From Azolla caroliniana (taxonomy: Eukaryota; Plantae; Polypodiophyta): DNA of 64,000 bases. How positions within the stretch are numbered: the stretch's first letter is position 1; every line of letters starts with the position of its first letter. The position numbers and the translations under genes are program-made. The DNA lies in the NCBI GenBank assembly GCA_043228905.1, contig JBHGNT010000003.1, positions 682,001-746,000 of the forward strand, in the 5' to 3' direction. Below are positions 14,618 to 64,000 of the stretch, in pieces. The notes beneath the pieces are model-generated. The model searched no databases. It was not told the DNA's origin and was given only the letters and a program-made list of their open reading frames with translations.

Positions 14618-14981
14618 TGTCATGATATAGCATGTTACGGCATCAAAAGGATTTGAACCCATGACCTTGTGTCACATGGGTTGAAGCCTTACCATTAAGC
14701 TATATGTTGTAATACAAAAATTATTATTTCCATTTATTATTTCACTTAGGAAATCCGTGTATATTCTAGATTTCTTTGGAACATTCTAGAAATGTCAAGA
14801 GTATTCCTAAGCCACTATAAAAAGTGGCACATGGCATTATTGAGAACCAAATCGGTTCAACGCCAATCTTAAGCCTCCTAGCTATTCCTGTATATTTTCT
14901 TCATATAATATATATCTTTTGTTATCATTATTCTCTCTCTCTCTCTCTCTCTCCTTCTCCCGAGAGTTCTACACCCCTCTT

Positions 14982-16125: not shown

Positions 16126-16491
16126 AGTTCTACACCCCTCTTAGTACTAATCCTCATCTTTTAGTACTAATTCCCTCTCTGTCTTAGTACTATTCCTGAC
16201 AGTTTGAACCGATTTTGTCCTTCCTTCTATCTTCTTACTTGTCCCTCCTTTCTCTAATACTATGGCAACTGTTAGCGCTCAAGAATATCAATTCGTTTTC
16301 TCATAGTTGCAATGTGTTACCCGTTCCTTTGGGTGAACACCTTCAATAGACCTGCGACTATCGGTATCCAAGGGCGTGGTACGTGAAGGCTCGTAACAGA
16401 GGCGTCGTGAGGGAGAAAATGATCAGAGATAAAACACTAGCGAGATCTTGATAGGCGTGGGCGGCGCTGAAATCATAAGTATGAGCCAAAG

Positions 16492-23061: not shown

Positions 23062-23073
23062 GCTCTGATACCA
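23062..23073 (-). promoter_or_regulatory. Primer-binding site, tRNA-iMet
   Basis: TGGTATCAGAGC, 2 nt after the 5' LTR. Confidence 0.95.
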
Positions 23074-23075
23074 AA

Positions 23076-26403: not shown

Positions 26404-26407
26404 TATT

Positions 26408-26425
26408 TGGTGAACCCGACGTGAA
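26408..26425 (+). promoter_or_regulatory. Primer-binding site, tRNA-Trp
   Basis: TGGTGAACCCGACGTGAA is complementary to the plant tRNA-Trp 3' end (..TTCACGTCGGGTTCACCA). Confidence 0.9.
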
Positions 26426-30469: not shown

Positions 30470-32022
30470 TGGGTGAGTCCTTATTAAGGGAGACACGTGG
30501 CCTCCTCCGTGGGGGTCTCCCGAAACTCGTTTGTGCCGTGTGGCTCGGTAAACAGGTTGGGTGGTGTAGTGCCTCGATATGGTCGAAGTCGGAAACCATT
30601 GGCCCAACTTTTGACAGTGTCGCCGGCGAGTGTGCCGAGCTGGAACGTCCCATTGAACTCGTCGATAATCCAGAATGGACCGGTTCACCGAAATCTTAAT
30701 TTTCCCGGCATTGACTCGAGTCGTGTTTGAAAAAGAAGAACCGGTTTGCCGATGGTGAGCTCCTTCTCCAGCCCGTTTCGATGTCAATCCACGAAAGCCT
30801 TGCGTTGTCGTTGGCGTTGTTCGAGCTGGGCCATACTCTCTATCCTGTCTTCGCCGAGTTCGAGGGGTTGTTCCAGCCGGTATTGCTCGGATTGGGCCTC
30901 GGGGAGCCGTGCTTTGATTTGAACTCGGAGGCTCGGGACTTGGAACTCGACGGGCATTACGGCTTCTAACCTGAACACCATTCGAAAGGGGGTTGATTGG
31001 ATGCTTGTTTTGAAATTCGTACGATACGCCCACAACGCGCTCTAGAGTTTGTCATCCCAATCGGTCCTGTTTTCATTGACGATCTTCTTCAGTATGGTTT
31101 GGAGGATTTTATTGGTTGATTCCGCCAAGCCGTTCGCCTGCGGGTAGTATGGTGTGCTTTTCTTGTGTACCGCCGCGTAGTGGTGTGTAAGCTCACGTAT
31201 TATATGATTGATGAAGTGCCCACCTTGGTCACTAACGAGCTCAATTGGGCATCCGTAATGGCACCAAAGTTGCTCGTACATGAATTGAGCCGTGGATGCC
31301 CCCGTGTTGTCTCGGAGTGCCTTAGCCTCGACCCATTTGGTGTAGTAGTCCGTGGCAACGATAATATACCTATTCCCTGTACGGGCCGCGGGTGGTTTGA
31401 AAGGGCCTACAAAATCCAAACCCCATTTTTGAAATGGGTCCAACGGAAGAATCGGCTGGTGTGGCATGCGTGAATGTTCCATTGGTTGCCCCAATCATTG
31501 GCACAAATCGCACTGCCGGCAAAACTCGTGAGCGTCTCTCTTCGTTGTCGGCCACCACAATCCGCTTTGCCAAACTTTCCTTGCCGTGGAATCCCCGACG
31601 TAGTGCCCCCTAGCTACTCCCTGGTGGGCTTCCTGAAGAACGACGTTCTTCTCGAATTGCCGAATCGCTCGGCGCCATATGCCGTCCGAGCCTTTGTGGT
31701 AGAGAATGTCCGAGACGAGGCAAAAATTCCGGCTACGCACTGCTAGGCGTTTTCTCGTGTCAAGGGGCATGTGCTCGGGAGGTAAACCGGTAGTGAGAAA
31801 ATGGGTCATCTTCGTGATCCATTCATCTTCGTTATCGTTTGGCATCATGGTCAGGTTAAATAGGCTGGCATCCGGTAGCTCGTCATACGTTGTTTTCGCC
31901 GGTTCCCCTGACTCAAGACGACTCAAGTAGTCGGCGACGGCGTGTTGTACCCCGGGTCGATGCTGAATCTGGTAATCAAACTCTTGGAGTAGGAAATCAA
32001 ACTCTTGGAGTTGGAGTAGGAG
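30470..32022 (-). pseudogene. pol: RNase H tail plus integrase of Y copy 2
   Basis: ORFs 31495..32052, 31042..31494 and 30784..31035; same stops as copy 1. Confidence 0.9.
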
Positions 32023-32820
32023 CTTTACTCCGGGTAGTGACGGTTTGAACATCGGCCATGATACTGTTCACCGCGGGTGCCTTGCCACAGTCGGTTGTTG
32101 GACATTGCGTGGCGTAGTGGCCTGGTTGGTTACATTTAAAACACGTAACGTTGGCCGAGCTGCTGGTGTCCGCTCGGTCTGTGAGTGGAAGTTGTTGCTG
32201 TTGATTCCCAGTCTCGTTTGGTGGTGGGTTGGTCCAAGGTGCGTTGGAGTTGCATTGGTCATTTTGAGGAGCGTCTCGTCGGCGGTTGTCGTTATGTCTT
32301 CTATTGTTGCGTGAGTTGCGGTTGCCGTTTCGCCGATCACTGCGTGAGTTCTGTCGGTCATACCGGTCATCGCGATCGTCATCATATCGAGCATAATCGT
32401 CGTGCTGATCATCGCGATAGTGATCACGACGGTCATCACGTCGGTAGTTGTCGTCTCGGCGCCGTCGATCCGGGAATCGCGGTCGGTTGTTATCCTGGTC
32501 TCGGTAGGCATATCGCTCGTCCTGCCGAGAGTATGTATTTCTTGGCTCGATCTGGCGGACCGGTGCCGCCGTTGTGCGGTTCAGCATATTATATTCGCAC
32601 TGCTCGACAGTGTGAGCTCGAGACTGACAGATCGGACACTGTGGTCGGTGGGGACATTCGAGGGCCAGGTGCCCTGATCCTGAACACGACGTGCATTGGA
32701 GAGCTTGGCGAAAGCGATTGTCCTCTTGGGGAAGAGCGTTTTGTAAGGATGTCATCGAGAAGGCCGCGCCGTGCTGGGTCCGATCGAGGGCGAGAACCCG
32801 CGCTATGACTTGTTCGATAG
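31997..32820 (-). pseudogene. gag: gag C-terminal half of Y, with three Cys/His knuckles
   Basis: CTSCSGSGHLALEC, CPICQSRAHTVEQC and CFKCNQPGHYATQC; homologous to 53990..54415. Confidence 0.85.
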
Positions 32821-35800
32821 TGTTGAGAATGAAGCTCAACTTGGTCTAGTGTGTGAACTCACCTTGAGAGTGAAGAGACACTCCAACGGTCAAGAGTCAC
32901 CATTATGTCACCACTTTGTATTCTAGCATTTAGTATGAGTCATAGAATCATATTCTATGACACATAACTTATGAGCTTTCACATTCCCCATGCTCCATGA
33001 GGCTTGTAGTTAATGAAGAGAGAGGGTGACTACATAAAGCACCCTCCTCCCACCTTGTATAATGTTGAGTCTTTCTCCTTTGCTAATATAATTTTACCTT
33101 GCATATTCTCTGTGTATTACTCCTTGTCTCTGTCACTCTCTCTCATACACACACAGTTCACACCTATTCCGCTTCACAAGAATCCATCTCTTGATTCTTT
33201 ACATGGTATCAGAGCGATTTGGTAGCTCGATCTAGCCCATTCGCCTCATTGTGATCGTGCGTTGTGATCTACGCCGACGACCAAGAACCGGCTCATAGCT
33301 ATCGTAGCTTCGCTACATAGCTCGCATTCGAAGAGAGAAGAAGAAGAAGAAGAATCGACATAATGAATACTCAAATGGGGAGCGCTCTCCCTACCGAGAA
33401 GTTGGATCGAAACAACTTCGCATCTTGGGAGTACAAGATGCATCAATACCTTGTCGGACAAGGCTATTGGAGCTACATCAAAGGAGCGCATGAAGACTGA
33501 CCCGCCGAAGCGGCTCCCGGATACACGACATGGGAGCAAGCCGCAAGCCGCGTGATGTATTGTTTGGCAACATGTGTTCACGACCACATGCTCGGTTACA
33601 TTCGAGAAGCCAAGACGCCGAAGGAAGCGTGGGAAAATCTATGAAAGATTTTCGCCGCTAACACGACCGCGAGGAAGCTTCAACTCCGCCAAGAGTTGAA
33701 CAACATTCAACAAAGGGACATGTCCATCATGACATACACCTTGAAGATCAAGGAGCTTTGCGACTCGCTCGGCTCAATAAGAGTAAGTATAGATGATGAT
33801 GAGATGGTGCAAATATGCCTCGACGGCCTCGCACCACGGTTCGGCGCGATGCGAACCGCCGTTCTAGCACGGGAGAAATCTCCCTCCTTCTTTGAGCTCC
33901 AATCAATGCTATTGGTCGAAGAAAACCACGTGCGTACAAGGAGCAATGAGTCGGAAGGTCACATGCTCTACACGCACTCTAATGGAGGAAGAGGACACAG
34001 ACGAGCGAGAGGCCGATTCGGCCAAGGACAAGGCGGACGAGGTCCGACCTACGACAACAACTCCCAATTTCGGCCGCAAAATGGAGGCCAACGAGGAACC
34101 TTCGCAAGAAGGGGGAGCTTCCACTCTGGCCCGAGCCGTCAAAATGCAACCGAATGTAGATATTGCGGAAAGCTCAGCCACCACGAAGAAGAGTGCCGAA
34201 AGAAGATGCGTGAATCGGCTTCCACAAGCCGACAACTCACGAATTACGCGCACAATTCCGACTACGAAGAGTATAGCGGAATGTACGGGCACAACTCTGA
34301 CTATGAGGATCGTGGCGGAATGTACGCATACAACTCCGACCGTGGCGGAATGTTCATGATGAAACATAGAGCAAAGTCTATGTCGGCCTCTACCTCAACT
34401 AGTGCCCTCAATCCGGAGGACGTATGGTTTGTTGACTCCGGAGCCTCAAACCATATGACATTCCACAAAGAATGGTTTCTCGAACTTCGAGAGCCGGAGC
34501 GACCCGGTTATGTCGAAACCGGAGATGACACTACGCACCCGATTCGGCACATCGGCAATGTTCCGTTCGGCGAAAGAGGTAAGCAAACATACATTAAAAA
34601 TGTCTTGCATGTACCCACCATCACAAAGAATTTGGTCTCCGTCGGCCAAATGGTTGAGCAAGGGATGCAAGTACGATTCGACCAAGAAGGGTGCTTCATC
34701 GAAAAAGAAGGTTGAATCATCGCACGCGGAAGAAGAGAGGGCCGGATGTTCATTCTCGATTCGCACGAGATGAAATCCGCCATGTTCGCGAAAAGCACGA
34801 AAGCCGACTCCGACATAGAGCTATGGCATAAGCGAATCGGCCACATCAATCTCAACAAACTCAAAGCAATGAAATCGAAAGGAGTCGTCATCGGACTCCC
34901 GACATTCAAAGAGAAGGAGATTGAAGGTGTATGCGAAGCGTGCCAATTCGGCAAGCAACACCGACACCCATTTCCGAAAGAGCGGAATGTGAGCAAAGGC
35001 GTACTCGACGTAATTCATTCCGATGTATGGGGTCCGGCTCAAACGGCGACATTCGGCAGATGCCGATATTACGTGCTATTCATCGACGACTTTTCTAGGC
35101 ACACTTGGATCTATCTGATGCGGCAACAGAGCGAAGTGTTCGGACACTTCCAAAATTTCAAGAATGAAGTCGAGAAAGCCACGGGCCGACATGTACGATG
35201 CCTTCGATCGGATGGCGGCAAGGAGTACTTCTTGGACGATTTCACGGCGTATCTCTGAAAGGAAGGAATTCGGCGAGAATTCACTTGCCGACACACTCTG
35301 CAACAAAACGGAGTACCCGAGCGCAAAAATCGGCACATCCTCGAAGTAGCGTGGGCCATGATGAACGAGAAGCATATGCCCAAGTCATATTGGGCCGAAG
35401 CGGCAAATACGGCCGTCTACCTAATGAACCGGTGCACAACATCCGGCGTGCACGAGGTCACTCCGCACGAAAGATTCTTTGGAAAGAAGCCGAACTTATC
35501 ACATATCCGAATATTCGGCACGATAGCGTACGTGCACATCCCCGACGAGAAGCGTCAAAAACTTGACCCGAAGTCGGAGAAATGTATCCTCGTAGGATAC
35601 TCACTGGAACAAAAGGGGTACAAGTGCTACAACCCCTCAACTCGAAAATTACGGGTAAGTTGAGACGTCGTCTTTGACGAGTCTGCATCCTGGTACGCAC
35701 TAGAGACAACTTCGACTCCGACCCCGCTCGACCCGGAATCCACCGAACAAGAGATAGAGGATGAAGATCACCTTACGCGCATGTTCGAAGAAAGTCTGAT

Positions 35801-38190
35801 CACGACCTGACTGAGCGGACCACAAGAGCCTTTGAGCGATCAAAGCATATCACGGCCTAGCCCGAAGATGGACAAAGGCAAGGCGAAAATGGGGGAATAC
35901 GAAGACGATCGCTTCACCGACGATGAGTCAACTCACTCACTCGACAGTGAGTTTGGCGGTTTCGAGGTACCAATCGGAGCAAAGAAGGCCCTCATCTCTG
36001 CAAATGAAAAGCTCCGCCGATCCACTCGTGAAAAGAACCCCGTAAGTCGATTCGGCTACAACGATTACATGGCGTACCATTACGCCTTTATGATGAAGGT
36101 TACGACAGTACGGGAACCGGAAACCTTTTCGGAAGCCGCGAAGGACCCGCGATGGATCGAAGCAATGAACGAGGAGATGTAGGCACTACGGAAGAATGAG
36201 ACGTGGGATCTCGTTCCCACCTCACCACACAAAAAGGCGATCGGATGCAGATGGATCTACAAGGTGAAGTATAACGCCGATGGCTCCGTAAACCGCTACA
36301 AAGCTTGACTCCTAGCGAAAGGATACGCTCAGACGCATGGCGTTGACTATGAAGAGACCTTTGCCCCGGTGGAAAAGATGACGACGGTACGGACCGTAAT
36401 TGCGATTGCCGCGGCGAAAGGGTGGCACCTCCATCAAATGGACGTCAAGAACGCCTTTCTACAAGGCGAATTAGAAGAGGAGGTGTACATGATCCAACCA
36501 CCCGGCTTTAACTCGAGCACTCTTCCAAAAGCCGTATGCCGACTCAAGAATCCACTCTACGGCCTGAAGCAAGCACCGCGTGCTTGGCATTCGAAGATAA
36601 CACAATATCTTCATCAAATCGGCTTCCGTATATCAAAATCGGACAACTCCCTCTACATACGAAGCGATTCCGCAAGTCTGATCGTCATCATCTTATATGT
36701 GGATGACCTAGTCATTGGAGGTGAGCATCTCGTCGAAATCACTAAGGTCAAATCCCTCCTTTCTGCCAAGTTCGAGATGACGGACATGAAGGAGCTCCAC
36801 TACTTCCTCGGCATCGAGGTAATTCGAACTCCGGCCGGAATCATGATCTCTCAACGGCACTACATCCTCAACTTGTTATACAAATTCGGGATGGCAGAGT
36901 GCAAATCCGTGGCAACCCCGCTTGATCGTAATCTCAAACTAGATGCGCACTCCGGCACCAAAGCGTGTGAGCCGACTCAGTATCGGCAACTCATCGGGAG
37001 TCTCATCTACCTCACGATCACACGACCCGATCTCAGTTATCCGGTCGGTCTCCTTAGCCAATTCATGCAAACACCGCGTGATACTCACTTGGATTGCGCT
37101 AAGCGAGTTCTACGATACGTGAGTGGCACAATGGATTGCGGCATCCTCTACAAGACTGCGATGCCAATACGACTCGAGGGGTACACCGACGCCGATTGGG
37201 CTGGCTACAAAGCTGATAGAAGATCAACCACCCTAAACCGTTCCCATCAAGGATCCGACTCCCCTTTACTGCGATAACATGAGCAGTATTTATTTGGCTC
37301 GGAACCCGGTGTTCCACGCGCGGACAAAGCACATCGAAGTGCACTATCACTTCATCCGAGAGCGCGTTCTGGCTGGCGATGTCGACCTACAACACATTGG
37401 CACCAATCTTCAAACGGCCGACATCTTCACTAAAGCCTTAGGAGCCGACAAGTTATGGCAATTCATGACCGATCTCGGATTGACGATCCCTGACTTGCCA
37501 AGCTTGAGGGGGAGTACTGAAGACACTACGCAATAACACGTAGATTCCGCAACCGCGCACTACGCAATAACGTGTGGATTCCGCAACCACGCAACAAAGC
37601 CGCGAAGAAAGACGCAAGCCGAAGCACAGACTTCGCAACTACGCACAACGCAAGCTGGAGCGCGGATTCTGCAACTCCGCATACATGCGAGTCGACACGA
37701 GTTGACGCAGACTCTAGAACGCGAGTTGAAGCGGATTTCGGATACAGTATGAAACCGACCCGACTTGAGCTTGAGGGGGCGTGTTGAGAATCAAGCTCAA
37801 CTTAGTCTAGCTTTTGAACTCACCTTGAGAGTGAAGAGACACTCCAGCGGTCAAGAGTCACCATTATGTCACCACTTTGTATTCTAGCATTTAGTATGAG
37901 TCATAGAATCATATTCTATGACACATAACTTATGAGCTTCCACATTCCCCATGCTCCATGAGGCTTATAGTTAATGAAGAGAGAGGGTGACTACATAAAG
38001 CACCCTCCTCCCACCTTGTATAATGTTGAGTCTTTCTCCTTTGCTAATATAATTTTATCTTGCGTATTCTCTGTGTATTACTCCTTGTCTCTGTCACTCT
38101 CTCTCTCTCTCTCTCTCTCACTCACTCACTCTCATACACACACAGTTCACACCTATTCCGCTTCACAAGAATCCATCTCTTGATTCTTTA
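32821..38190 (+). mobile_element. Ty1/copia LTR retrotransposon, decayed
   Basis: LTRs at 32821-33203 and 37782-38190 (terminal CA lost), iMet PBS at 33204-33215, PPT at ~37772-37781; domain order gag-PR-INT-RT-RH. Confidence 0.96.
33363..37536 (+). pseudogene. gag-pol: Copia gag-pol with ~8 nonsense codons and an RNase H deletion
   Basis: CRYCGKLSHHEEEC, WFVDSGASNH, WHKRIGH, IHSDVWGP, LRSDGGKEY, QMDVKNAFL, LYVDDL, YTDADW and RTKHIEV. The SWxSKKQ..EAEY segment is missing at ~37230. Confidence 0.93.
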
Positions 38191-43948: not shown

Positions 43949-46448
43949 TTACTTGTCCGTTGGTCCTCTCGGACCCTTACCGGCCTCATTCTCCCCAGTT
44001 ACCGGCTCGCCGTCTCTGCTGTCTTGGTGGTTGCCGTTTCCCTCATCGGTGTCGGTCCTTTGCTCAAATGGGTTCTTAGGCATCGGTCCTCTATATGGCT
44101 TCAATCGGAATCCGTTGACCCATTTGCCTAGCACTTCGCCGGCAAGTGTCCCTAACTGGTAGGACCCATTATATTCACGTGTTAGCCAATATGGTCCGGT
44201 CCATCTAAACCGTAGTTTACCCGGCATCTTGCCCATCCGGGTCTGAAATACTAACACCGGTTTGCCGATTGCGAACATTTTTTCGTTTCCTTTCCTGTGC
44301 CGGTCGACAAATGCTTTCCGTCGCTGTTGTTCCAATTCTAAGTGCAGGATGCTTGCTAGTCGTTGTTCCTCGAGTTCACACAGCGCTGTTAACCGTATTG
44401 CCTCCGACTCCTTCTCGTTCAACCGTTACTGTAGCTGGATCCGTAAGCTGGGTACTTGGAATTCCACCGGCATTACCGCCTCTAGTTCGAACGCTAACCG
44501 GAACGGTGTTGTTCGGATGCTCGTTTTGTATGCCGTCCGGTATGCCCAAAGCGCGCTATGTAGCTTGGTATCCCAATCCGTTCGGTTTTCGTTGATGATC
44601 TTCCGGAGGATATTCTGGAGCATTTTGTTCGTCGATTCCGCTAACCTGTTTGCTTGCGGATAGTATGGTGTGCTCCGTTTATGGACAACGGCATAGAATG
44701 TCGTCAAGCTTTCAACTACTTGGCCGAGAAATGCCCCCCTTGGTCGCTTATTAATTCGATTGGGCATCCATAACGACACCAGATGTACTCGTATAGAAAT
44801 TTCGCCGTTGACGCAACGGTGTTGTCTCTTAAGGCTTTGGCCTCCACCCATTTCGTGCAGTAATCCATCGCAACGATGACGTACCGATTACCCGTTCTCA
44901 TTGCTGGTGGTTTGAACGGTCCAACAAAGTCTAGCCCCCACTTCTAGAATGGCTCGAGTGGTAGTACCGACTGGTGTGGCATACGAGCTTGCTCCGTTGG
45001 CTGGCCCATTCGCTGGCATAGGTCACATTCTTTTGCGTACCGTACTGCATCTCTTAATGTTGTTGGCCACCATAGGCCACTTTGCCATATTTTCCTGGCC
45101 GTCGCATCTCTGGCATAGTGACCTCCGGCAACTCCGCAGTGAGCTTCCCTCAGTATCAGGTTCTTTTCATCGTTGCGCACAGCCCGTCTCCATATGCCGT
45201 CTGCGCCCTTGTGGTAAAGTGTGTCTTGCAGTAAGCAGAAATGTCGGCTTTGCACCGCCAGGCGTTTTCGTTCGTCCCGGTTCATCTCTTCCGGAGGCAG
45301 TCCTGTGCTCAGAAACTGGTGCATATTTGTGAGCCACTTGTCTTCCTGTGCCACCGTCTCATCTGTTGCCGTTTCCGTAGTGACTCGAAACAGCCTGCAT
45401 CCGGAAACTCATCCGCTACTCCATCACCTGTCTCTCCGAACTCTAATTTGCTTAAGTAATCCGCCACGGCATGCTGTATACCGGGTCGATGGAATATTTC
45501 AAACTCGAATTCCTGTAACAGTAAGGTCCACCGGGCCAATTTGCCGGTGAGTGACGCTTTGGACACCAGGTAAAGGAGTGCTGAATGATCTACATGGAAG
45601 GAAAAGTTCCTTCCCAATAAATAATGCCGAAACTTTGTCACACTATAGATCATCCCTAGAGCTTCCCGTTCAGTGGTAGAGTAGTTCCGTTTTGCTTGGG
45701 ATAGCTTTCGGCTAGCATAGTACACTGGCCGGTACCACATTGGCTCCGTAAGCTGCATCAGTAGGCTTCCAATTGCGATGTCGGAGGCATCCATGAACAC
45801 ATGAAATTCTTTACTCCAATCCGGAGGCTGCACTACCGGTGCTTGCGACAATAGTACCTTGAGGGCCCTATACGCCCTATCCTCGATGTCGGTCCATTGG
45901 AATGGTGTCCGATGTACGACGGCATTCAACGGTGTAGCCAGGTTGGCCAAGTATTGGAGCATCCGGTTGTGCCACCGGATCTGGCCTAAGAACCGGCTTA
46001 ATGCCTTTGTCGTTGCCGGCGCCGGTGCTTCCAATATGGCTTTCACTTTGTCCGGGTCGACTGCAATTCCTTCCTGGCTCACAATATGTCCTAATAAAGT
46101 TCCACTGGACACGCCAAATACACACTTTGCCGGATTCAAGCTTAGCCAGTACGCTCTACACTTTTCTAGACAAAGACGGAGGTGCTAAAAATGGTCCTCC
46201 TCCCGGTTATAGACGGCGAAATCGTCAAGGAAAACCTGCATAAAAGCCGGAATATATTCACCAAAGATTTCCATGATGATTCGTTGAAATGTTGCCGGTG
46301 CCATTTTGAGTCCGAACATCATCACCACGGCCACAAACACCTCCCATTCGGTGACGAAAGTCATTTTCTCTTGGTCCTCGGGGTGCATCCGGATTTGATT
46401 ATACCCGCTGAATCCGTCTATTAAGCTATAGACCTCATGGCCGGCGAC
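43949..46448 (-). pseudogene. pol: Z pol: RT C-terminal part, RNase H and integrase (frameshifts and stops)
   Basis: DGFSGYNQI, VFLDDF, FMDASD, TTEREAL, HVDHSAL, HHCC and YPQAN.LAE. Confidence 0.92.
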
Positions 46449-46572
46449 TGTCATGGCAAGACTCGAACCCATGACTTTATGCTACATGGGTCGAGCTCTT
46501 ACCATTAGATTAGGAATTGTATTTTGTAGGATATTATTTTCATTTATACTTTATCATAGAAAATTGATGTAT

Positions 46573-46633
46573 ATTCCAGATCTCTCTGGAACATTCTAGA
46601 AGCTTCAAGATTATTCCTAAAAACACTATAAAA
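46573..46633 (+). promoter_or_regulatory. Heat-shock element array plus TATA box in the LTR (also at 51770-51830 and 14763-14823)
   Basis: gGAAc-aTTCt-aGAAg-cTTCa at 46588-46607, within 9 phased pentamers; TATAAAA at 46627. Confidence 0.75.
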
Positions 46634-46945
46634 GGAGGCACAAGGCATTGTTTTGAACCAAATTGGTTCAACGCCAGTCTTAAGCCTCCTAGCCGCTTGT
46701 ACTTATCTTTTCACATAATATATAGCTGCTGTCATCATCTCTCTCACTCTCGCTATCTCTCTCTTTCTCCTCTTCTCACTTCCTCTCGGGAATCTTACGC
46801 AGTCCCGTCCTCTTAGTACTAATAGTACTGTTGTTCTTAGTACTAATTCCATCTCTGTTTTAGTACTATTCCTGACAGTTTGAACCAATTTTTCCTCTAG
46901 CCTACTTGTCACTCTCCCTCATCCTCCTACCCTTTTCCCTATACT

Positions 46946-48103
46946 ATGGCTACTGTTAGCGCCCAAGAATACCAATCCGTTTTCTCCGAGCTACAGTGCC
47001 TAAAAGAAAAGTTTGTTCCCCTGGAACAAGAAAACCAACGGCTGATAGGGGATCTGCAACAAATCGCTCTAGAAAAACAACAAACGCAACAACAACATGG
47101 GGAGTTAGCGTTACGGGTACAACAACTCGAAGCAGCGTTGCAACAACAAGGATCCAGTCCCCAAGGATTTCATAAAGAGCCCAAGATTGGACTTCCTGTG
47201 AAATTTGATGGAACGCGTTCGCAATTCCGGGGATTCCTTAATCAGGTACGCTTAGTCATCCAGATGCATCCTTCCCGATATCCCACTGATGCATCTCGAG
47301 TCGGCCTAATAGGCACGCTACTTAGCGGCTCAGCCTTGGCATGGTTTGCTCCGCTTCTAGAAAAACAATCACCCTTACTTAATAACTTTGAAGATTTTAT
47401 TGGTGAGTTTAAAGCCTGCTTTGGAGACACCGACAGCATCAGGACGGCGATCAACAAGATCCGGTGATTGCGTCAAGGTGATCGTCCAGCCTTTGCCTAC
47501 GCGGCGGATTTCCGCCTACTTGCTTCAGATATACCCTGGGATGATCAAGCACTAATGGAGCAGTTTCGCTATGGCTTGCGAAACGATGTCAAAGATCTAC
47601 TTCTAACTTTCCCCGAAGAACCAAAGTCTCTTACGGAGGCAATCAGTCGAGCAGTTCGATGTGACAACCGCCTTTTTGAACGGCGTTCAGAACGTCAATT
47701 ACAGATACCACGCTCTAGTCTAGAGCCCACTTACGCCGCAGTCGCGGCTAAACCGTTTGCACGAGACACACCTCAAGCAAATACTTCGACACCGATGGAG
47801 ATCGATACCATGCGTCGACGCGGCCCGTTATCGAAAGAAGAAAAGCAACGACGACGTGCCAATCGATTATGTCTTTATTGCGGTGGACCAGGACATATCG
47901 CCATCAATTGTCCCCATAGGCCAAGAAGACAGGTAAATCAAATCGTCGCCTGTACTAAACCCGAGTCAATTCTTCCCTTTGGAGTGTCTGATAGTATTAA
48001 TAGTACTAATAGAGTGTCAGATAGTATTCATAGTACTAATAGCCCAAGTATCTCAAATAAATTTGAAATCCTTAGTCAATTAGATGAAGAGTTAAACGAT
48101 TGA
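46946..48103 (+). pseudogene. gag: Tcn1-like gag (one TGA at 47465)
   Basis: KFDG..FRGFLNQ, LRQG..YAADF, PMEID and CLYCGGPGHIAINC. Confidence 0.9.
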
Positions 48104-51100
48104 GTCCAGCCAAAATAGGAGCCATTTGGTTGGACAGCAGCCCTAGATCTGTACAGCCCATTAGTGGTTCCATTCCTTCCAAGCAAGTTAGCAATGTGTT
48201 CCTAGCCCAAGTCATTGTTAGTACTAAAAGTACTCCCCCAGTACCCGTCCTAGCACTTTTAGATTCCGGAGCTAATTCCTGTTTCATGGATCGAAATTTT
48301 GCCCAAGCTTCTCAGATATCCTTAAGAAAACTTCCTTGTCCCGCATCTGTAGTGGTCATTGATGGTCGTCCCATTGCTTCCGGGAATATTGTAGAAGAAT
48401 CAGAACCCATTCAAGTTGTCCTAGGTAGTTTTGTGTGTATAATATCATTTAATATAATTAGTAGTCCAGAGCATCCCATTGTCCTAGGATTACCTTGGCT
48501 TGAATTACATAATCCAGCCATAGATTGGAGAACAAGAGAAGTCTGATATCGACCACCCCAAGAATCAACTCACCGAGTTTCGACCATTTCACTCCATCAA
48601 CTACGCGAAGAAGGACCCAAGGAGGCAATGTTCCTATTTGCCATATCAGTACATCCTTCTAGCACTATTAAGAAGGTCTCCTCAATACAACTTCCGGCAA
48701 AATATCATCCTTATGCCGATGTATTTGACAAGGTAAAAGCCGGTACCCTTCCTCATCACCGTCCCTATGACTGTCCCATCGATTTACAACCAGGAACCGA
48801 GCCACCATGGGGACCAATTTACAACTTGTCACCCACCGAGTTAGAAGTCCTTCGAGCCTACATAGAGGAGAACTTGGCAAGCGGGTTCATCCGTCATTCG
48901 AAATCTCCGGCTGGTGCACCCATCTTCTTTGTCAAGAAGAAAGATGGCTCACTTCGTCTTGTCGTTGATTACCGCGGATTGAATAAAGTCACCATCCGGA
49001 ATAGGTATGCACTTCCTCTTATATCAAGTCTTTTAGAGCGAGTTAATGGTGCCAAGTTTTTTACTAAAATCGACCTACGAGGAGCGTATAATCTCGTGCG
49101 GATCCGACCGGGAGATGAGTGGAAAACCGCTTTTCGCACGCGGTATGGGCATTTCGAGTATACTGTTATGCCGTTTGGCCTAACCAATGCACCCGCAGTC
49201 TTCCAACACATGGCAAATGATATATTCAGAGACCTCTTGGATATCTGTTTGATCATTTATCTGGATGATCTGTTGATTTATTCGAAGACCCAGGAAGAGC
49301 ACGATTCTCATGTACTATTAGTACTAAAGCGACTCCGCGAGAATGGTCTTTATGCCAAGCTAGAGAAATGTAGCTTTGACTGCAAGCAAGTGGAATTTCT
49401 AGGCTACGTCATCTCCTCAAAGGGCATCGCCATGGATCCAGCTAAAATCCAAACTGTACTAGAGTGGCAAATTCCACGGTCGGTACGAGATGTACAATGT
49501 TTTCTAGGCTTTGCTAACTTCTACCGTAAGTTTATACAGGATTACTCGAAGATTATTTTACCTCTCACACAACTTACGAAGAAGGGCCAAGCATTTCTTT
49601 GGTCCATCGAAGCAGATATGGCTTTTTGGCATCTTAAGAAAGCCTTTACATCAGCACCGATTCTAGCTCATGTGGATACAAGCAAACCATTCATCATGGA
49701 GGCCGACGCATCAGATTTCGCCCTCGGTAGCATCCTTTCTCAACAAGGCGATAAAGAAGAGTTGCATCCGGTGGCTTTCCATTCGCGCAAATTCAATGTC
49801 GCAGAAATCAACTACGAAATACATGACAAGGAGTTATTAGCCATCGTGGATTCATTTGTACAATGGCGGCATTTCTTAGAGGGCTCTCCACATCAGGTCA
49901 TTGTCTTTAGCGATCATAAAAATCTTGCTTATTTTCAGAACGCTCGCGTACTAAATCGACGGCAAGCTCGGTGGGCGCAATTCCTCACGCGTTTCAACTT
50001 CAAAATCACATATCGACCGGGGAAGCAGCAAGGAAAAGCAGATGCACTATCACGGCGTTCATATCTTGCACCTCGTCCTGGTGACGCAACATTTGATAAT
50101 CAAAAGCAAGTAATCTTGGGACCAACACGATTGCACACGACGCGGATTTTTCACACCCCGATGGATTCATGGATTACCGATGACATACGTGCAACCTTGA
50201 AGACGGATAGTTTTGCTCAAGACATCCTGGCGCACATTGATACTTCTCGGGCATCCTGTTCTCAGTCTCAACAACCAGGTATTGACTACTGACAATTCGA
50301 ATATCATGATGGTTTGTTATTCTTTAAAAAGCGCGTATATGTCCCCGATTGCTCCGGTCGCCTTCAAATCGTCCAACATTGTCACGACACCCATACGGCG
50401 GGACATTTCGGTAGTACCAAGACGTTGGAGTTAGTGCAGCGATCTTTTTGGTGGCCCCACATGCGCTGTTTTGTCGACGACTATGTTCGGACCTGTGATG
50501 CTTGCTGCCGAGCAAAGATGCCACGACACTATCCATATGGCTTGTTGGAACCTTTACCAATTCCAAGTAAGCCATGGCAGTCTATTTGTCTTGATTTTAT
50601 TACAGATCTGCCGGTCTCGAAGGGGTTCGATGCTATCCTAACCGTCGTTGATCGATATACGAAGATGGCACATTTTGTGCCATGTACTAAAGCCATCACT
50701 AGCGAGGAAACCGCCGCTCTTGTTATGCGTGAGGTATTTCGGCATCATGGCCTACCAGACAGTATTATCAGTGACCGAGGCCCGCAATTTGTCTCCAAAT
50801 TTTGGCAGCATCTCTTCAGGATGCTCAAGGTCTCCTGCAACCTCTCCTCCGGCTACCATCCTCAAACTGACGGACAGGCGGAACAAACAAATCAAACGTT
50901 GGAGCAATATCTCCGGTGTTTCCTGAGTTATCAACAGGACGATTGGGCCGAGATTCTCCACTTTGCGGAGTTTGCGTATAATAATGCTATTCACTCCTCG
51001 ACTCGGGTCTCCCCATTTCTCGCTTATACCGGTTTCCATCCTCGCTGGTCGGTGATCGACACTCCGGAGCTACCTACCAACCCTCGTGCCGAGGACCATT

Positions 51101-51601
51101 TGGAGAGGCTACGCAAGATCCAGATGGATCTCTCTACTCACCTTCGTCATGCTCAACACACACAGAAGACTTATGCGGATCGTCATCGGATTCCCTCCTC
51201 TTTTGCCATCGGAGACCGAGTGCGACAAGTTGGATTATCGACGACTCGGTCCTTTCCGTATTACGGGGAAGATTAATGATGTCACCTTCCGCCTGGATCT
51301 CCCTCCGCAGCTTCAGATACATCCGGTTTTCCATTGTTCTCTTCTTGAACCTTATAAAGCAAACACCATTCCCGATCGTGTGACACCACCGCCGCCCCCG
51401 CTGGAGTTGGACGACGGCCCGGAGTATGAAGTTGCTGCCATCCTCGATTCCAAACTTGTTCGCAACAAACTTTATTACTTGGTCGATTGGCTCGGTTATA
51501 GTCCGAGCGAACGTACTTGGGAACCCGTCGAGAATGTTGCCAATGCACAAGATCTTCTTGCTGATTTTCACCGAAAGTATCCGGACAAACCCGGTCCGTA
51601 G
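48088..51601 (+). pseudogene. pol: Tcn1-like pol in the -1 frame (PR, RT, RH, INT, chromodomain); stops at 48544 and 50290, small deletion at ~51222
   Basis: [47 protein letters not shown] and the chromodomain. Confidence 0.92.
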
Positions 51602-52076
51602 TTAGCGCCGACTCGTTCCACTCGTCGTCTTTAAGGGGGAGATAGTGTCATGGCAAGACTCGAACCCATGACTTTATGCTACATGGGTCGAGCTCTTACC
51701 ATTAGATTAGGAATTGTATTTTGTAGGATATTATTTTCATTTATACTTTATCATAGAAAATTGATGTATATTCCAGATCTCTCTGGAACATTCTAGAAGC
51801 TTCAAGATTATTCCTAAAAACACTATAAAAGGAGGCACAAGGCATTGTTTTGAACCAAATTGGTTCAACGCCAGTCTTAAGCCTCTTAGCCGCTTGTACT
51901 TATCTTTTCACATAATATATAGCTGCTGTCATCATCTCTCTCACTCTCGCTATCTCTCTCTTTCTCCTCTTCTCACTTCCTCTCTCGGGAATCTTACGCA
52001 GTCCCGTCCTCTTAGTACTAATAGTACTGTTGTTCTTAGTACTAATTCCATCTCTGTTTTAGTACTATTCCTGACA

Positions 52077-55000
52077 GCGACGACATCCAACACTCCATCT
52101 GTGAACGGAAGTGGAAACGCATCCGTTACCGTAGCTGCATTGAGTTTCCTGTAGTCCACACAAACTCGAAATTTTCCGTTCTTCTTCGGTACGACTACGA
52201 TCGGGCTCAGCCATGTCGCTTTCTTTACCGGACGGATAAAGCCAACTCTTAGCAGTTTGTCGATTTCCTCCTTGACTTTGGCGGCATAATTGGGATTCAT
52301 CCGGTACCGTCTTTGTGCCACTGGTTTTGCGTCCTTGCTCAAGTGAGGGTCGAGTCCTCGCATGTCTTCATATGACCAGGCGAACACATCGCGAAATTTC
52401 GTGAGAAGTGTGATCATCACCGTTTTGTCTTCGGACTTCATCTCCTTGGCGATGTGCACCGGTTTTGCTACGTCTGTGGTCCCTAGGTTCACGTCTTCTA
52501 GTTGCGATGCTTTTACGCATTGTGAAACGGCCATTTCCCGTTCCAACGCTTCCTACGCTTGCCGTAACTCCCGGATTGCGTCTTTATCCGGTTCTGCTTC
52601 AGCCTCTTCCGGTTGCGGTAAGTATGGTGCTACTGCTTCAGCAATGTCAATTTCGAAGAGGGGTATGATCTTCGGGTTTTCCTGCAAGTACTGAGCTTCT
52701 TCTTCGTCAGCTAACCCTTCTTGCATGTTGATGCACTCTGCATACAACGGTGTACATTCCTTGCCAGTGCTCGTCCTTGGCTGTGTTGGTACCCGTACCT
52801 TGGCTTTTCCTCGCCGAAAGGTAATTATATTTTTCCTCAAATTCTGTTTGATATGTGCCGCTTTCAACCACGGCCGCCCCAGCAATAGCGGGTATGCGCC
52901 TTGTGCCTGTAATTGTAGCACTACTGCCGAGATGTGAAATGTATGACCGCCCACGGTGACTTCTAATTTCCGTATTAATCCTGTCGGCCGCACTGAGCTT
53001 GTATCGGCCATCCGCAACCAGAACGGACACGGCTCCCACTCGTGGATTCCTAGGGCATCACACATCCGGAGGCTTATTACATTCACCCCAGAGCCTCCGT
53101 CTATAACTGTGCCGGGGAGTTCTTTCCCTTTTACAATGGCAGTGATTACCGGACTGTTGGTGTCCACCACCGTTGGTCCCTCCTCCGGATTCGAGAAGAG
53201 TACCGGTGCCGGTGATGATTCTCCTGCCGTCATGGCCGTCTTCAGTCCTTCCGTGAATCTTGGCACGAGTTGCAGGAGTCTTCCTAGTGGCAGCGTAATT
53301 TGGCATTCTTGCAACGCCTACCATGTCTCGTTCTCGGAGTGACTGCCGCCGGCAAGCCCTACGGTGTTCTCCTTTTGCCGTTGTAAGTCTGTGACATTCT
53401 TCTTGTTTGCTTTCTTCACCCATTCCATTGCTTGTTTCCGGATGGTCTCCTGCGTCTCCCATTCCTTGGCCATGCCCTTCGATCTTGTGGTCACCTGCTG
53501 CAGATCTGCCACCTCAGGGACTACCATATTTACCGCCGGTCGTTTTTTATAGCTCTTCACCGGGCATTGATTACTATAATGGCCTTCCTGTCGGCAGTAG
53601 TAGCAGTAGGCTTTCCGGGTATTGCTGGATTCGGCATTGTCTGTTGTACCCGAGGCAGGTCCTGTGGTACGCGCTGGGTTTTGGGCCGGTTGGCTGCTTG
53701 AAGCTCCTTGTTCCGGATCCCGTGGGTAGCCGCCTTTTTTGAAATGTCGTTTTTTGTTATAGCTCTTCTTATTGCGGTACTCTTGACAGGGTTGCCCGTT
53801 ATATCTGTCGTATTCCTCCCGTTGCTGATGATACCCGGGGGAGTGCTCCCAGTCGTAATGTTCGTACCGTCTATTGTAATCCCGGTACCGATCATGCCGG
53901 TCATAGTTATCCCGCCGATCACCGTACCGGACATCATTCTCCCGTCGATCGCCATACTAGACATCCTATGCCGGTCAGTCGCAGTCCATTCACCGCCAAC
54001 GTTCCTCTTCTTCATCCTGGCTGCTGCGTGGCTCAATTTGTCGGACGGGCGGTGCTTGCCGATTCAATAGATTATACTCGCACCTATCTGTCGTATGGCC
54101 CTTGGATTGACAAATTACACATTGCGTCCTCATAGTGCATTCTACAGCCGAGTGTCTGGAATTCAAGCAGGTTGTGCACTGTATTGCTTGCCGAAACTGG
54201 AGGTCTTCATCAAACGGTAACGCCCGTTGGAGTGCTCCTAGTGTCAGCCAGGAGCTTGTCTTTTCCTTCTCTCTCACCCGGTTAATGACCTGGTCGATGG
54301 TACTTGTGCGGAAGTCGATTACCGTGCAAACCGTGCGTAGGGGTTCCTGGAGCGCATTTAGGAATATAGTCCGTAATTCCTCCTCCAGGGGTGCGCGGGC
54401 AAGCTGACTATGCATCCGTTGAAACCGGATGACAAACTGGGGAACGCTCTCCCCTGCTTCCTATCGGATGGTATAAAATAAGCCTACCATTACGGTCTGG
54501 TCCACCTCCTTTTGGAAAAAATGCAAGAATTTAGCTTTTAAATCTGCAAAGGTGTTGATGGTAGACGGGTCCTGCGTCCGGCGCCATCTTGCTGCCGATC
54601 CCTCCAATGTGACGCCAAATTCCGCTATCTTAGAGCGTTCCTCCTCATCCGGGGTCAATCGCTGGGACACATGGTTGGCTTCCCATGTCTGTTCAAAGGC
54701 GTGCACATGAGCTTCCGCGTCCGGATCATCTATATACTTGGAGTACTGGAACGGCATGTTGTCGTCCGGTATTGGTGCGCGGGCTGGCAGTGTTGGTGCT
54801 CGTTTCGGGATTTTCTCCGGCGTCGGTGGTCTTTCCCGATTTGTTTCCGGCGTCAGTGGTTTTTCCTCTTCTTTTGGTGACGGAGGCCTCTCCTCTTCGA
54901 CTTCCGGTGTCGGAGGTCACTCTTCCTCTGCTGGTTCCGGGGGTTCCAGCATTAGCACTTCCGGTTCTGGTGTCGGTAAGGTATCTGATCCTTCGTCCTC

Positions 55001-61957: not shown

Positions 61958-64000
61958 ACGTGCAACAACTTGAAGCAACCATTGTAGCATTGCAACAACA
62001 AGGACCAAGTACGCAAGGGATTCATAAAGAACCCAAGATCGACCTTCCTATGAAATTTGATGGAACGCAATCACAATTTAGAGGATTCCTTAATAAGGTA
62101 CTATTAGTCATTCAAATGCATCCTTCTCGATATCCCACCGATGCATCACAAGTGGGTCTAGTAGGCATGTTGCTAAGTGACTCAGCTTTGGCATGGTTCG
62201 CTCTGTTGTTAGAAAAGGAATCTCCATTACTAAATAATTTTGAGGAGTTTATAAGCGAGTTTAAAGCTTGTTTTGGAGATACTGATAGGATAGCATAAGG
62301 ACGACAATCAACAAAATCCGACGATTACATCAAGGTAATCACCCAACCTCCGCATACGTTATAGATTTCTGTCTACTTGCCTCCGATATCCCCTGGGATG
62401 ATCAAGCATTAATGGAACAATTTCGATACGGCCGACGAAATTATGTCAAAGACCTACTCCTGACTTTCCCTGAAGAACCAAAATCGCTCACAGAGGCAAT
62501 CAATTGAGCGGTAAGATGCAATAATCGGCTTTTCGAGTGACATTCAGAATGCCAATTACAAATGCCAAGGACCAGGTTGGAGCCCACATACACCTCGGTC
62601 GCAACAAAACCATTTGCAAGGGAGTCATACAATGCATCTCTGGCAAATACTCCAATAGAAATTTTTGATACTTCTAATAGTACTAATAGCCCAAATCTAT
62701 TAAACAAATTTGAAGTCCTTAGTCAATTAGAAGAAGAGTTAAACGACTAAGTTCATCCAAAATTGGAGCCGTTTGGTTGGACAACCCTAGATCTATGCAA
62801 CCCATTAGTGGTTCCATTCCCTCTAAGCAAGTTAACAATGTGTTCTTAGCTCAAGTAATGGTTAATACTAAAAGTACTCCTCCAATACATGACTTGGCAC
62901 TCTTAGATTCCGGTGCCAACTCTTGCTTCATGGATAGGAATTTTGCCTAAGCTCATCAGATATCCCTAAGAAAACTTTCTTGCCCAACATTTGTAGTAGT
63001 TATTGATGGTCGTCCCATTGCTTCCGAAAATATCGTAGAAGAGTCAGAGCCGATTCAGGGTGTCCTAGATAATTTGGTGTGTGTAGTATCATTTAATATA
63101 ATTAATAATCCAGATCATCCAATTGTCTTGGGGTTACCATGGTTCGAATTACATAACCTAGACATAGATTGGAGAACAAGAGAAATCCGGTATCGACAAA
63201 CCCAAGAACCTACTCATAGGATTGCAACCATTTTGCTACATCAATTGCGTGAGGAAGGATGCAAGGAAGCAATGTTTGTCTTCGTAGTATCAGTAAAAAC
63301 TTCCAACACTACTAAAGAGTAATCCACAGTTCAGCTTCCAAAGAAGTATCGTCATTATGCTGACGTGTTCGATAAGGTACAAGCCAGTACACGCTTCCTC
63401 ACCACCAACCGTATGATTGTCCCATTGATTTACAATCAGGAAAAGAACCACCATGGGGACCAATCTACAACTTGTCACCAACCGAGCTAGAAGTCCTTTG
63501 AGCCTACATAGAGGAGAATTTGGCAAACGGTTCCTTTCGACATTCGAAATCTCCAGCCGGCGCACCCATTTTCTTTGTCAAGCAAAAGGATGGATCACTT
63601 TGTCTCGTTGTAAATTATCGTGGCTTGAATAAGGTCATTATTAGGAATAAGTATGCACTTCCCCTTATCTCGATTCTTTTAGAACAGATCAATGGTGCAA
63701 AATTCTTCACAAAGATCGACTTACGAGGAGCATATAACCTCATACGGATTCGACCAGGAGATGAATGGAAGACCGCATTTCGCACCAGATATGGGCACTT
63801 CGAGTATACGGTTATGCCATTCGGTCTCACTAATGTGCCATTAGTCTTCCAACACATGGCAAATGATATATTCTGAGATCTCTTGGATATTTGTTTGATC
63901 ATCTATTTGGATGATCTACTGGTTTATTCGAAGACTCAAGAAGAACATGATTCTCATGTAGTATTAGTACTAAAACGACTTTGAGAACATGGTCTTTATG
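61958..64000 (+). pseudogene. gag-pol: Old Tcn1-like gag-pol continuation (gag from codon ~58, PR, RT), heavily decayed
   Basis: Colinear with ~47117-49350: [31 protein letters not shown] and YLDDL. Confidence 0.92.

What the first reader, a model, noticed from the sequence alone, without database searches (positions are those of the whole stretch)
46459..46512. Antisense tRNA-type Pol III A/B-box built into the 5' end of a chromovirus LTR
Seen: on the minus strand the LTR start reads TAATCTAATGGTAAGAGC...GGTTCGAGTCT (A-box 46512-46502, B-box 46469-46459). The diverged old copy has TAGCTTAATGGTAAGGC...GGTTCAAATCC (14702-14692, 14659-14649). A-to-B spacing is 43 nt in both, close to real tRNAs, and the old copy keeps a D-arm. 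An ACCCATG/CATGGGT hairpin is also conserved. Known: A/B boxes bind TFIIIC, which can drive Pol III or act as an insulator, and Cassandra TRIMs carry 5S Pol III promoters in their LTRs. Inference: a domesticated tRNA/SINE head that fires outward from the 5' LTR and antisense into pol from the 3' LTR, or shields the heat-shock promoter from heterochromatin. I know of no description of this in Tcn1-like elements.
Basis: partly seen in the sequence, partly recalled or inferred. Interest (0 to 1): 0.85.

Follow-up and report, generated by a model that had tools for sequence, protein, structure and literature searches.

The report
tRNA-type promoter kept in retrotransposon ends
A whole group of moss-type jumping genes keeps the two promoter boxes of a tRNA gene, facing outward, at the very tip of each end-repeat while the rest of the tRNA has decayed, which likely gives each new copy its own polymerase III factor-binding site that would act as a fence against silencing.

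Summary
The boxes lie antisense at the U3 tip of both LTRs of a young, self-priming Tcn1-type chromovirus (46449-52076) and of an older relative. Relatives were picked by integrase protein alone. All 13 clade LTR heads scored carry the A/B pair at 42-46 nt spacing, and 11 have at most 3 mismatches; 0 of 33 other LTR heads reach that. In an unanchored alignment of 7 diverged LTRs, identity is 0.72 (B) and 0.64 (A), against 0.33 for the spacer, 0.38 for flanking U3 and 0.78 for TATA. An AT-rich upstream zone is kept too. The cloverleaf, the hairpin, a terminator and the heat-shock elements are not kept clade-wide. Selection therefore seems to act on a DNA promoter, not on a tRNA. Binding, transcription and barrier function are untested. 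The closest known case is Helenus, which is non-autonomous; this element is coding, antisense and keeps its Pol II promoter. The scan noted tRNA-type boxes in chromovirus LTRs of a probable gut fungus (e1-10420520, not checked here).

The parts
46449..46877 (+). 5' LTR (TG...CA, 429 bp) of a young chromovirus; target-site duplication GCGAC at 46444-46448 and 52077-52081
   Evidence: 428 of 429 aligned bases identical to the 3' LTR, plus one 2-base gap
46449..46519 (-). tRNA-like head: D-loop and T-loop motifs at tRNA spacing; acceptor and anticodon stems lost
46502..46512 (-). A-box (tRNA positions 8-19)
   Evidence: mean identity 0.64 across 7 LTRs
46459..46469 (-). B-box (tRNA positions 52-62), preceded by a conserved variable-loop motif at 46470-46477
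   Evidence: identity 0.72 and 0.71
46453..46505 (.). Subfamily-specific inverted repeat (hairpin) overlapping both boxes
   Evidence: z -5.6; not conserved in other families
46534..46564 (-). AT-rich zone at -15 to -45 of the inferred tRNA +1, a predicted TFIIIB landing region carried inside the LTR
   Evidence: 87% AT here against 66% in the rest of U3; higher in 8 of 8 LTRs
46589..46606 (.). Heat-shock-element-like array (alternating GAA/TTC units)
   Evidence: present in 5 of 8 LTRs scanned
46627..46633 (+). TATA box of the element's Pol II promoter
   Evidence: (identity 0.78)
46660..46671 (+). Predicted RNA 5' end and self-primer, complementary to the PBS
   Evidence: 12 nt complement, 33 nt after TATA
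46880..46891 (+). Self-priming PBS (not complementary to a tRNA 3' end)
   Evidence: changes together with the primer in L005, L011, L017 and the old copy
46946..51598 (+). gag-pol (capsid, zinc knuckle, protease, RT, RNase H, integrase, chromodomain about 51425-51577); interrupted in this copy by stop codons and a frame change
51633..51645 (+). Polypurine tract
51646..52076 (+). 3' LTR with the same head (A-box 51699-51709, B-box 51656-51666, minus strand), pointing into pol; first T4 run 1325 nt away
14618..14960 (+). Old 5' LTR of a related family, first part (about 77% identity); A-box 14692-14702, B-box 14649-14659 and T4 run 14645-14648 on the minus strand
16137..16302 (+). Rest of the old LTR (ends 16201), its self-priming PBS (16204-16215) and the start of gag, separated from the first part by a 1.2 kb insertion

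Best explanation
The LTR tip carries a tRNA-derived A-box/B-box pair, facing outward, that is conserved across a whole clade of Tcn1-type chromoviruses and likely works at the DNA level by recruiting TFIIIC and TFIIIB as a portable chromatin boundary for the element's own Pol II promoter. Shown: (1) the motif pair, its spacing and orientation; (2) its presence throughout one integrase clade and its absence from the sister and outgroup LTRs tested; (3) conservation of the promoter positions and of an upstream AT-rich zone, with decay of the stems and the anticodon arm; (4) an intact TATA and self-priming system beside it. Inferred: (5) one ancient insertion of a tRNA gene or tRNA-SINE head into U3, then copied to both LTRs by ordinary reverse transcription; (6) TFIIIC binds the boxes and loads TFIIIB about 60-90 bp outward of the Pol II TATA box; (7) the chromodomain integrase places copies in heterochromatin, and the complex at the outer edge of the 5' LTR limits spreading of silencing, or read-through from the flank, into the promoter. 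Any Pol III RNA would be a by-product with a variable 3' end.
For: 13 of 13 clade heads have the pair on the minus strand with 0-4 mismatches of 19 (11 with at most 3) at spacing 42-46, while the distance from the B-box to the LTR end varies from 10 to 51 nt. 0 of 33 control LTR heads reach 3 or fewer, nor do any of 25 further outgroup loci with enough DNA, of 28 fetched. Quick tree: one branch (SH-aLRT 99) holds 15 rows, 12 with the head and 3 whose contigs end 9-26 nt into the LTR; the sister branch (L015, L030 tested) lacks it. Unanchored alignment of 7 LTRs: B 0.72, A 0.64, spacer 0.33, flanking U3 0.38, TATA 0.78, self-primer 0.73. Ten universal D- and T-loop positions 0.97, anticodon arm 0.37, acceptor strands about 0.3; box against other positions permutation p 5e-5. 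AT content at -15 to -45 is 74-90% against 47-78% for the rest of U3, higher in 8 of 8, matching the TFIIIB zone described for plant tRNA genes. In four runs the majority letter restores G10 and G45 where this copy deviates. TFIIIC and tDNA barrier, insulator and roadblock effects are described in yeast (passages). A moss chromovirus is described as concentrated in heterochromatin yet transcribed (passages on RLG1; whether RLG1 carries this head was not tested).
Against: There are no binding, chromatin or RNA data, and conservation cannot tell barrier from transcript. Spacing is held at 43-44 nt in 11 of 13 heads, tighter than TFIIIC is thought to need (recalled). The inner D-stem survives in 5 of 7 family representatives, with C-G and U-A exchange at pair 11-24, and positions 44, 46 and 47 outside the canonical boxes are invariant in those 7 (48 in 6 of 7); both could point to an RNA-level constraint. 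L017 and L057 are degenerate (4 mismatches; 3 and 6 of 200 shuffles as good), and L007 has G52T and C61T. One contig in run X18 changes T8 (depth 1551 of 7067). The families are related, so columns are not independent. The per-position test is anchored on the boxes, and the consensus strings are recalled. tDNAs can also repress neighbouring Pol II promoters. Barrier activity of TFIIIC in plants appears in none of the papers I read.
Confidence: 0.45

Rival explanations
1. The unit is a working Pol III promoter whose RNA is what matters: antisense RNA from the 3' LTR tunes the element's own expression, or a short tRNA-like or hairpin RNA acts in trans.
For: The complete promoter layout is kept (A-box, B-box, AT-rich upstream zone). 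The young family forms a strong hairpin over the boxes. A T4 run lies within 51 nt of the B-box in 8 of 14 heads. The inner D-stem is partly kept.
Against: No conserved terminator: the first T4 lies 213 nt (5' LTR) and 1325 nt (3' LTR) away in this element, and 388-1026 nt away in four others. No consensus fold. The covariation score is reached by 63 of 500 shuffles. The hairpin is limited to one subfamily.
Confidence: 0.2
2. An inert relic: a tRNA or SINE fragment inserted once and now decaying, with apparent conservation due to ancestry and to my anchoring.
For: Below the Rfam threshold. L017 and L057 are degenerate. The sister branch and SM-Tcn1 manage without it.
Against: The boxes align without anchoring and match TATA and self-primer conservation, while the spacer between them has drifted to 0.33. 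Loci were selected on protein alone. Spacing is fixed while indels accumulate on both sides.
Confidence: 0.1
3. The genomic RNA carries the complement of tRNA D- and T-loops at its 3' end and pairs with a host tRNA to aid dimerisation, packaging or strand transfer, as with the 3' half of the Ty3 bipartite PBS or the tRNA-like stretch in HIV-1 U3-R.
For: The orientation and place (just after the PPT, antisense) are those of the precedents (passages, title in a reference list only). Transitions in the boxes would be tolerated by G-U pairs. Fixed spacing fits a folded tRNA partner.
Against: The element is self-priming, and primer and PBS change together in 5 of 5 elements examined, so no tRNA primer is needed. 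Stem positions that would add pairing to one specific tRNA are not conserved, and the D-arm differs strongly between families. The upstream AT-rich zone is not explained.
Confidence: 0.08
4. The boxes bind some other host factor or serve as U3 signals for integrase or plus-strand synthesis, and the tRNA likeness is only their origin.
For: They lie 10-51 nt from the LTR end, where integration and priming signals sit. Extra conserved positions (20, 22, 37, 44, 46, 47) fall outside the Pol III consensus.
Against: The invariant set coincides with the universal tRNA promoter positions (0.97), in two blocks at tRNA spacing. The variable distance to the LTR end argues against an end-processing signal.
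Confidence: 0.1
5. The unit is a landing pad that draws Pol III-targeting elements, or sister copies, to insert upstream of it inside U3.
For: An unchecked scan note reports this for a probable gut fungus (e1-10420520). L057 breaks off just upstream of the A-box. One contig of depth 2.8 in run X21 joins the A-box side to another LTR start.
Against: Two anecdotes only. Attracting insertions into its own promoter would not benefit the element, so this would be a consequence rather than the reason for conservation. The 1.2 kb insertion in the old copy lies about 260 nt from the A-box, downstream of the TATA box.
Confidence: 0.07

Closest known systems
Helenus TRIMs and the TRIMp3 group (Kojima 2024, PMC10886601; parts 1-4 of 6 of the text read)
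   Same: [quoted passage not shown]
   Different: Helenus is non-coding, 311-1263 bp and tRNA-primed, and its boxes are proposed to transcribe the element itself. Here the element is a 5.6 kb coding, self-priming chromovirus with its own TATA promoter, and the boxes point away from the element's RNA. The paper says that 'not a few' Repbase LTRs resemble part of a tRNA but analysed only TRIMs, so similar autonomous cases may sit undescribed in Repbase.
Cassandra and Ajax TRIMs (as described in PMC10886601)
   Same: A Pol III internal promoter captured in an LTR and conserved at the promoter motifs.
   Different: 5S-type rather than tRNA-type, and non-autonomous. Cassandra has a conserved terminator and makes its genomic RNA from this promoter.
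Plant Tcn1-clade chromoviruses, such as SM-Tcn1 (PMC2864245, passages and supplement S3; PMC6317226, passages)
   Same: Domain order, chromodomain, TG...CA LTRs of about 430-440 bp, 5-bp TSD and self-priming layout; SM-Tcn1 shares the motif at the predicted RNA start (read by eye).
   Different: The SM-Tcn1 LTR begins with tandem repeats and shows no A/B head by eye. Neither paper's passages mention a tRNA-like LTR sequence.
tDNA and TFIIIC (ETC) chromatin barriers of yeast (PMC4228148, passages)
   Same: The mechanism proposed here: product-independent boundary, insulator and roadblock effects of Pol III complexes.
   Different: Those are fixed host loci with measured occupancy. This would be a mobile version, carried by the element, and its occupancy is untested.
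Ty3 bipartite PBS (PMC11381356, passages) and the tRNA-Lys3-like stretch in HIV-1 U3-R (title only; paper not held)
   Same: tRNA-complementary sequence near the 3' end of the genomic RNA.
   Different: Both serve a tRNA primer, and this element has none.

Membership tests
Tcn1-clade chromovirus (Ty3/gypsy) | gag, protease, RT, RNase H, integrase, chromodomain in that order | tested here: met
Tcn1-clade chromovirus (Ty3/gypsy) | Chromodomain with an aromatic cage | tested here: met
   Tyr, Trp and Tyr at the cage positions, read from the translation; cage positions recalled, feature
Tcn1-clade chromovirus (Ty3/gypsy) | No tRNA PBS; self-priming | tested here: met
   12 nt complement in 4 of 5 elements, 9 nt in the fifth
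Tcn1-clade chromovirus (Ty3/gypsy) | RT/INT phylogeny with named Tcn1 references | tested here: inconclusive
   The tree held no named Tcn1 reference; nearest named hits are fungal, Plasmodiophora and fish elements; SM-Tcn1 compared by eye only; REXdb files too large to read
Helenus / TRIMp3 | tRNA-like sequence in both LTRs, conserved at boxes A and B, no functional cloverleaf | tested here: met
Helenus / TRIMp3 | Short non-autonomous element without coding capacity | tested here: not met
   5.6 kb with gag-pol
Helenus / TRIMp3 | Pol III promoter oriented to transcribe the element | tested here: not met
   Boxes are on the minus strand; the plus strand of the heads has 5-8 mismatches
Helenus / TRIMp3 | PBS complementary to a tRNA | tested here: not met
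Functional tRNA gene | Cloverleaf with acceptor and anticodon stems; passes tRNA finders | tested here: not met
   Acceptor 36% and anticodon 37% paired; Rfam 19.4 and 15.8 bits against 29, none for two others; ARAGORN none
tRNA-derived SINE (SINE2) | Free dispersed copies with body, tail and their own TSD | tested here: inconclusive
   All 16 strong profile hits in 500,735 bases (109 records) are LTR heads; no host genome was available
Type 2 Pol III promoter / TFIIIC barrier | A- and B-box at suitable spacing with an AT-rich upstream zone | tested here: met
Type 2 Pol III promoter / TFIIIC barrier | Conserved oligo-T terminator | tested here: not met
   First T4 at 0-1325 nt across 14 heads
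Type 2 Pol III promoter / TFIIIC barrier | TFIIIC/TFIIIB occupancy, transcription, blocking of silencing | not testable with these tools
   No chromatin data; runs are held as contigs only

The most novel reading that the evidence does not exclude
A clade of heterochromatin-targeting, protein-coding chromoviruses domesticated a tRNA gene promoter as a built-in, outward-facing chromatin barrier, so each insertion brings its own TFIIIC boundary and the host genome is seeded with thousands of mobile tDNA-like insulators that could also reshape host chromatin domains.
Probability: 0.35. Interest if true: 0.85.

Novelty: new variant of a known kind. Interest (0 to 1): 0.62.

Why it matters
Pol III promoters in LTRs are described for short non-coding elements, where they replace the Pol II promoter. 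Here one sits back to back with an intact Pol II promoter in a coding element, points outward, and has been kept about as strictly as the TATA box across families whose LTRs are otherwise barely alignable. If it is a barrier, it offers a testable answer to how chromoviruses that insert into heterochromatin stay transcribable, and it implies many TFIIIC sites spread through the host genome. If it is transcribed, it is a built-in source of antisense RNA. In practice such heads can inflate tRNA pseudogene and SINE counts, and they give a simple sequence marker for this clade.

Tried and rejected
No whole host genome was held, so no genome-wide copy survey was possible. No RNA holder was listed for the element. 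One run guessed to be RNA gave a single contig of depth 2.8, and another was probably DNA; contigs cannot show strand, so this says nothing on expression. The variant tables are incomplete (40 of 107 rows shown; one search missed differences seen), so the lack of listed B-box variants was not counted as evidence. Rfam on the whole window gave only chance hits. Relaxed ARAGORN at 80% called 5 of 13 heads on the minus strand and 0 of 33 controls, but at 70% controls also scored, so it was not used further. A DNA pattern scan of viral contigs found 0. Protein scans of viral and genome contigs gave 28 loci, none above 57% identity. Pairing of an antisense head RNA with the PBS was considered and rejected: only about 9 nt with wobbles, and the L002/L005 PBS does not match its B-box. 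The source tRNA could not be identified, since no host tRNA set was available and ARAGORN isotype calls disagree. My first self-priming check was off by one base and was redone. The careful tree did not finish; the quick tree is reported. L024, L057 and most loci above L045 were not in the tree. From, L005 (near copy of L002) and L024 (rearranged) were left out of the heads; distant loci with no LTR start called, or judged near-duplicates, were left out of the controls; the L018 control window started a few bases early. The sequence look-up in earlier findings found nothing. Ten literature searches listed no paper whose title or abstract describes this feature in Tcn1 or other coding chromovirus LTRs; the library lacks most subscription papers. 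Passages of PMC2774510, PMC13570524, PMC13269885 and PMC1868783 added nothing beyond a mention of Helenus. A recalled report of antisense Pol III transcription in Drosophila mdg1, and recalled Pol III small-RNA cassettes in foamy-virus U3, could not be checked and would lower novelty if they apply. Unreadable supplements of PMC2864245 (five DOC files) and PMC6317226 (element table and FASTA) may hold further Tcn1 LTRs.

Full report
What is there. The finding lies at the left tip of the 5' LTR of a young Ty3/gypsy element at 46449-52076. The LTRs are 429 and 431 bp and differ by one mismatch and one 2-base gap; the target-site duplication is GCGAC. The interior encodes capsid, zinc knuckle, protease, RT, RNase H, integrase and chromodomain, interrupted in this copy by stops and a frame change. 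The PBS is not a tRNA complement. It pairs over 12 nt with LTR sequence 33 nt after the TATA box; the same layout, with different letters, holds in the old copy, L005 and L011 (12 nt) and L017 (9 nt). Self-priming and an aromatic-cage chromodomain are the reported marks of plant Tcn1 elements, found in mosses and club-mosses (passages). The host is therefore probably a moss; this is inferred, as no genome was held. The family is abundant: 1990-3072 contigs per run were laid on a 401-base stretch in four runs of four coded organisms.

The observation. They are the only three B-box matches in the window. The layout between the boxes has the length of a short-arm tRNA. It is not a tRNA gene: ARAGORN finds none, and Rfam gives 19.4 bits for the old copy and nothing for the young one. 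In the four runs the majority letter differs from this copy at tRNA positions 10 and 45, in the direction of the tRNA consensus.

Is it more than chance, and is it kept? Thirteen heads from the element's clade (11 loci and 2 window copies) all show the pair on the minus strand. They have 0-4 mismatches at 19 fixed positions of a recalled consensus, 11 of them at most 3, at spacing 42-46. In 10 of 13, none of 200 dinucleotide shuffles did as well; L007, L017 and L057 were matched by 1, 3 and 6. None of 33 control LTR heads reached 3 or fewer on either strand, nor did 25 further outgroup loci of 28 fetched. In 870,804 strand-bases, 14 sites had at most 2 mismatches, and 11 of them were these heads. 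A quick maximum-likelihood tree places 12 head-bearing rows and 3 rows with truncated LTRs on one branch (SH-aLRT 99). Its sister branch lacks the head where tested, and SM-Tcn1 of Selaginella shows none by eye. Profiles built without a given family recover it at E 3.6e-9 to 0.006 for six family groups and 0.24 for L017, which fits one origin.

What is conserved. An alignment of seven whole LTRs, made with no anchor, brought the boxes into register. Mean pairwise identity was 0.72 for the B-box, 0.71 for the adjoining variable-loop motif and 0.64 for the A-box, against 0.33 for the anticodon spacer and 0.38 for flanking U3; TATA was 0.78 and the self-primer region 0.73. By tRNA numbering in seven representatives, the ten universal D- and T-loop positions average 0.97, the anticodon arm 0.37 and the acceptor strands about 0.3; U33 is not kept. 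The permutation p of 5e-5 is optimistic, because that table is anchored on the boxes and the families are related. The zone 15-45 nt upstream of the inferred tRNA start is richer in A+T than the rest of U3 in 8 of 8 LTRs, as described for TFIIIB sites of plant tRNA genes (abstract, passages).

What is not conserved. The cloverleaf pairs in 49.8% of cells against 47.8% in shuffles, with acceptor and anticodon stems at 36-37%, and the covariation score is reached by 63 of 500 shuffles; RNAalifold predicts no pairs. The D-stem (65%) and T-stem (69%, largely G-U) survive in part, and pair 11-24 alternates between C-G and U-A, which is the best hint of an RNA-level constraint. The hairpin is strong in the young copy and L001 only. 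The first T4 run lies 0-1325 nt beyond the B-box. Heat-shock arrays are present in 5 of 8 LTRs scanned.

How it most likely works. Kept promoter positions and upstream AT zone, with lost stems, anticodon and terminator, are the pattern expected if a protein reads the DNA. I put about 0.7 on a functional TFIIIC site of some kind (inference; the sum of the barrier, transcript and landing-pad readings). Within that, a boundary role is the most economical. The unit sits at the outermost edge of the 5' LTR, between flanking DNA and the Pol II promoter, in an element whose chromodomain is thought to target heterochromatin (passages), and Pol III complexes act as barriers, insulators and roadblocks in yeast (passages). 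Confidence is 0.45. Rivals are a functional antisense or small RNA (0.2), an inert relic (0.1), another factor (0.1), pairing with a host tRNA as in Ty3 and HIV-1 (0.08) and a landing pad (0.07). None of binding, transcription or barrier activity was tested here.

Comparison with what is known. Helenus TRIMs carry tRNA-derived boxes in their LTRs with the same conservation pattern, but they are short, non-coding and tRNA-primed, and are proposed to be transcribed from those boxes. This element works like them in having captured a Pol III promoter, but fails three defining features and is not a member. That paper notes that other Repbase LTRs resemble tRNA parts without analysing them. Ten searches listed no description of this feature in Tcn1 elements, within a library that lacks most subscription papers. 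Earlier scan notes report related arrangements on other DNA, above all tRNA-type boxes in chromovirus LTRs of a probable gut fungus. I could not check them; the AT-rich outgroup loci showed no such boxes in the DNA held.

Verdict. A real, clade-wide and apparently selected feature, and a new variant of Pol III promoter capture in LTRs, with its function inferred only. Interest 0.62.

Noticed in passing
L005, about 1010-1069 and about 6330-6390 (minus strand): A second antisense tRNA-like A/B unit (3 and 4 mismatches) inside the protease-RT linker, read through in frame in the first copy and present in two element copies 77% identical; absent from the same linker in the window element, its relative at 63170, L001, L004, L007 and L011. 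Possibly a second capture in the same clade.
   Followed up: partly
L079, about 1476-1650: A 175 bp solo LTR (TG...CA, 5-bp duplication) with perfect sense A/B boxes, inserted into the RT gene of another Gypsy element; looks like a Helenus solo LTR and served as an unplanned positive control.
   Followed up: partly
L073:6633-6690 and L065 near 9547: Sense A/B-like pair (3 mismatches in L073) within LTR sequence of a distant Gypsy family; weak profile hits, E 0.02-0.05.
   Followed up: no
window 46665-46675 (+): The conserved motif at the predicted RNA start also fits the B-box pattern on the plus strand, but has no A-box upstream and is broken in the L002/L005 family, so self-priming probably explains it.
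   Followed up: partly
SM-Tcn1 supplement of PMC2864245: By eye the SM-Tcn1 PBS is complementary to its LTR just after the TATA region, so it looks self-priming although the paper reports no evidence for that.
   Followed up: no
window 1-7347 and 25678-32562: Two copies, about 98% identical and in inverted orientation, of a large element with internal 240-320 nt repeats and long ORFs without Pfam hits.
   Followed up: no
window 16486-23540 (minus) and 32820-38190 (plus): A chromovirus with a 1510-codon open frame and 99% identical LTRs, and a copia element; both have a conventional TGG-type PBS, and their LTR heads score 4 and 5 mismatches at best.
   Followed up: partly
window 14961-16136: 1.2 kb insertion in the old LTR, including three 166 nt tandem units at 15637-16134.
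   Followed up: no
window 61960-64000: A related element (77-82% identity to gag-pol) whose LTR is not in front of it; another element's sequence precedes it.
   Followed up: no
run X21, contig laid on window 51648-51697: A single 116-base contig of depth 2.8 joins the A-box side of one head to the start of another LTR; could be a nested insertion, a tandem copy or an artefact.
   Followed up: no
L083-L108: Eukaryotic chromovirus sequences occur in 26 loci of prokaryotic genome assemblies, probably as contamination.
   Followed up: no
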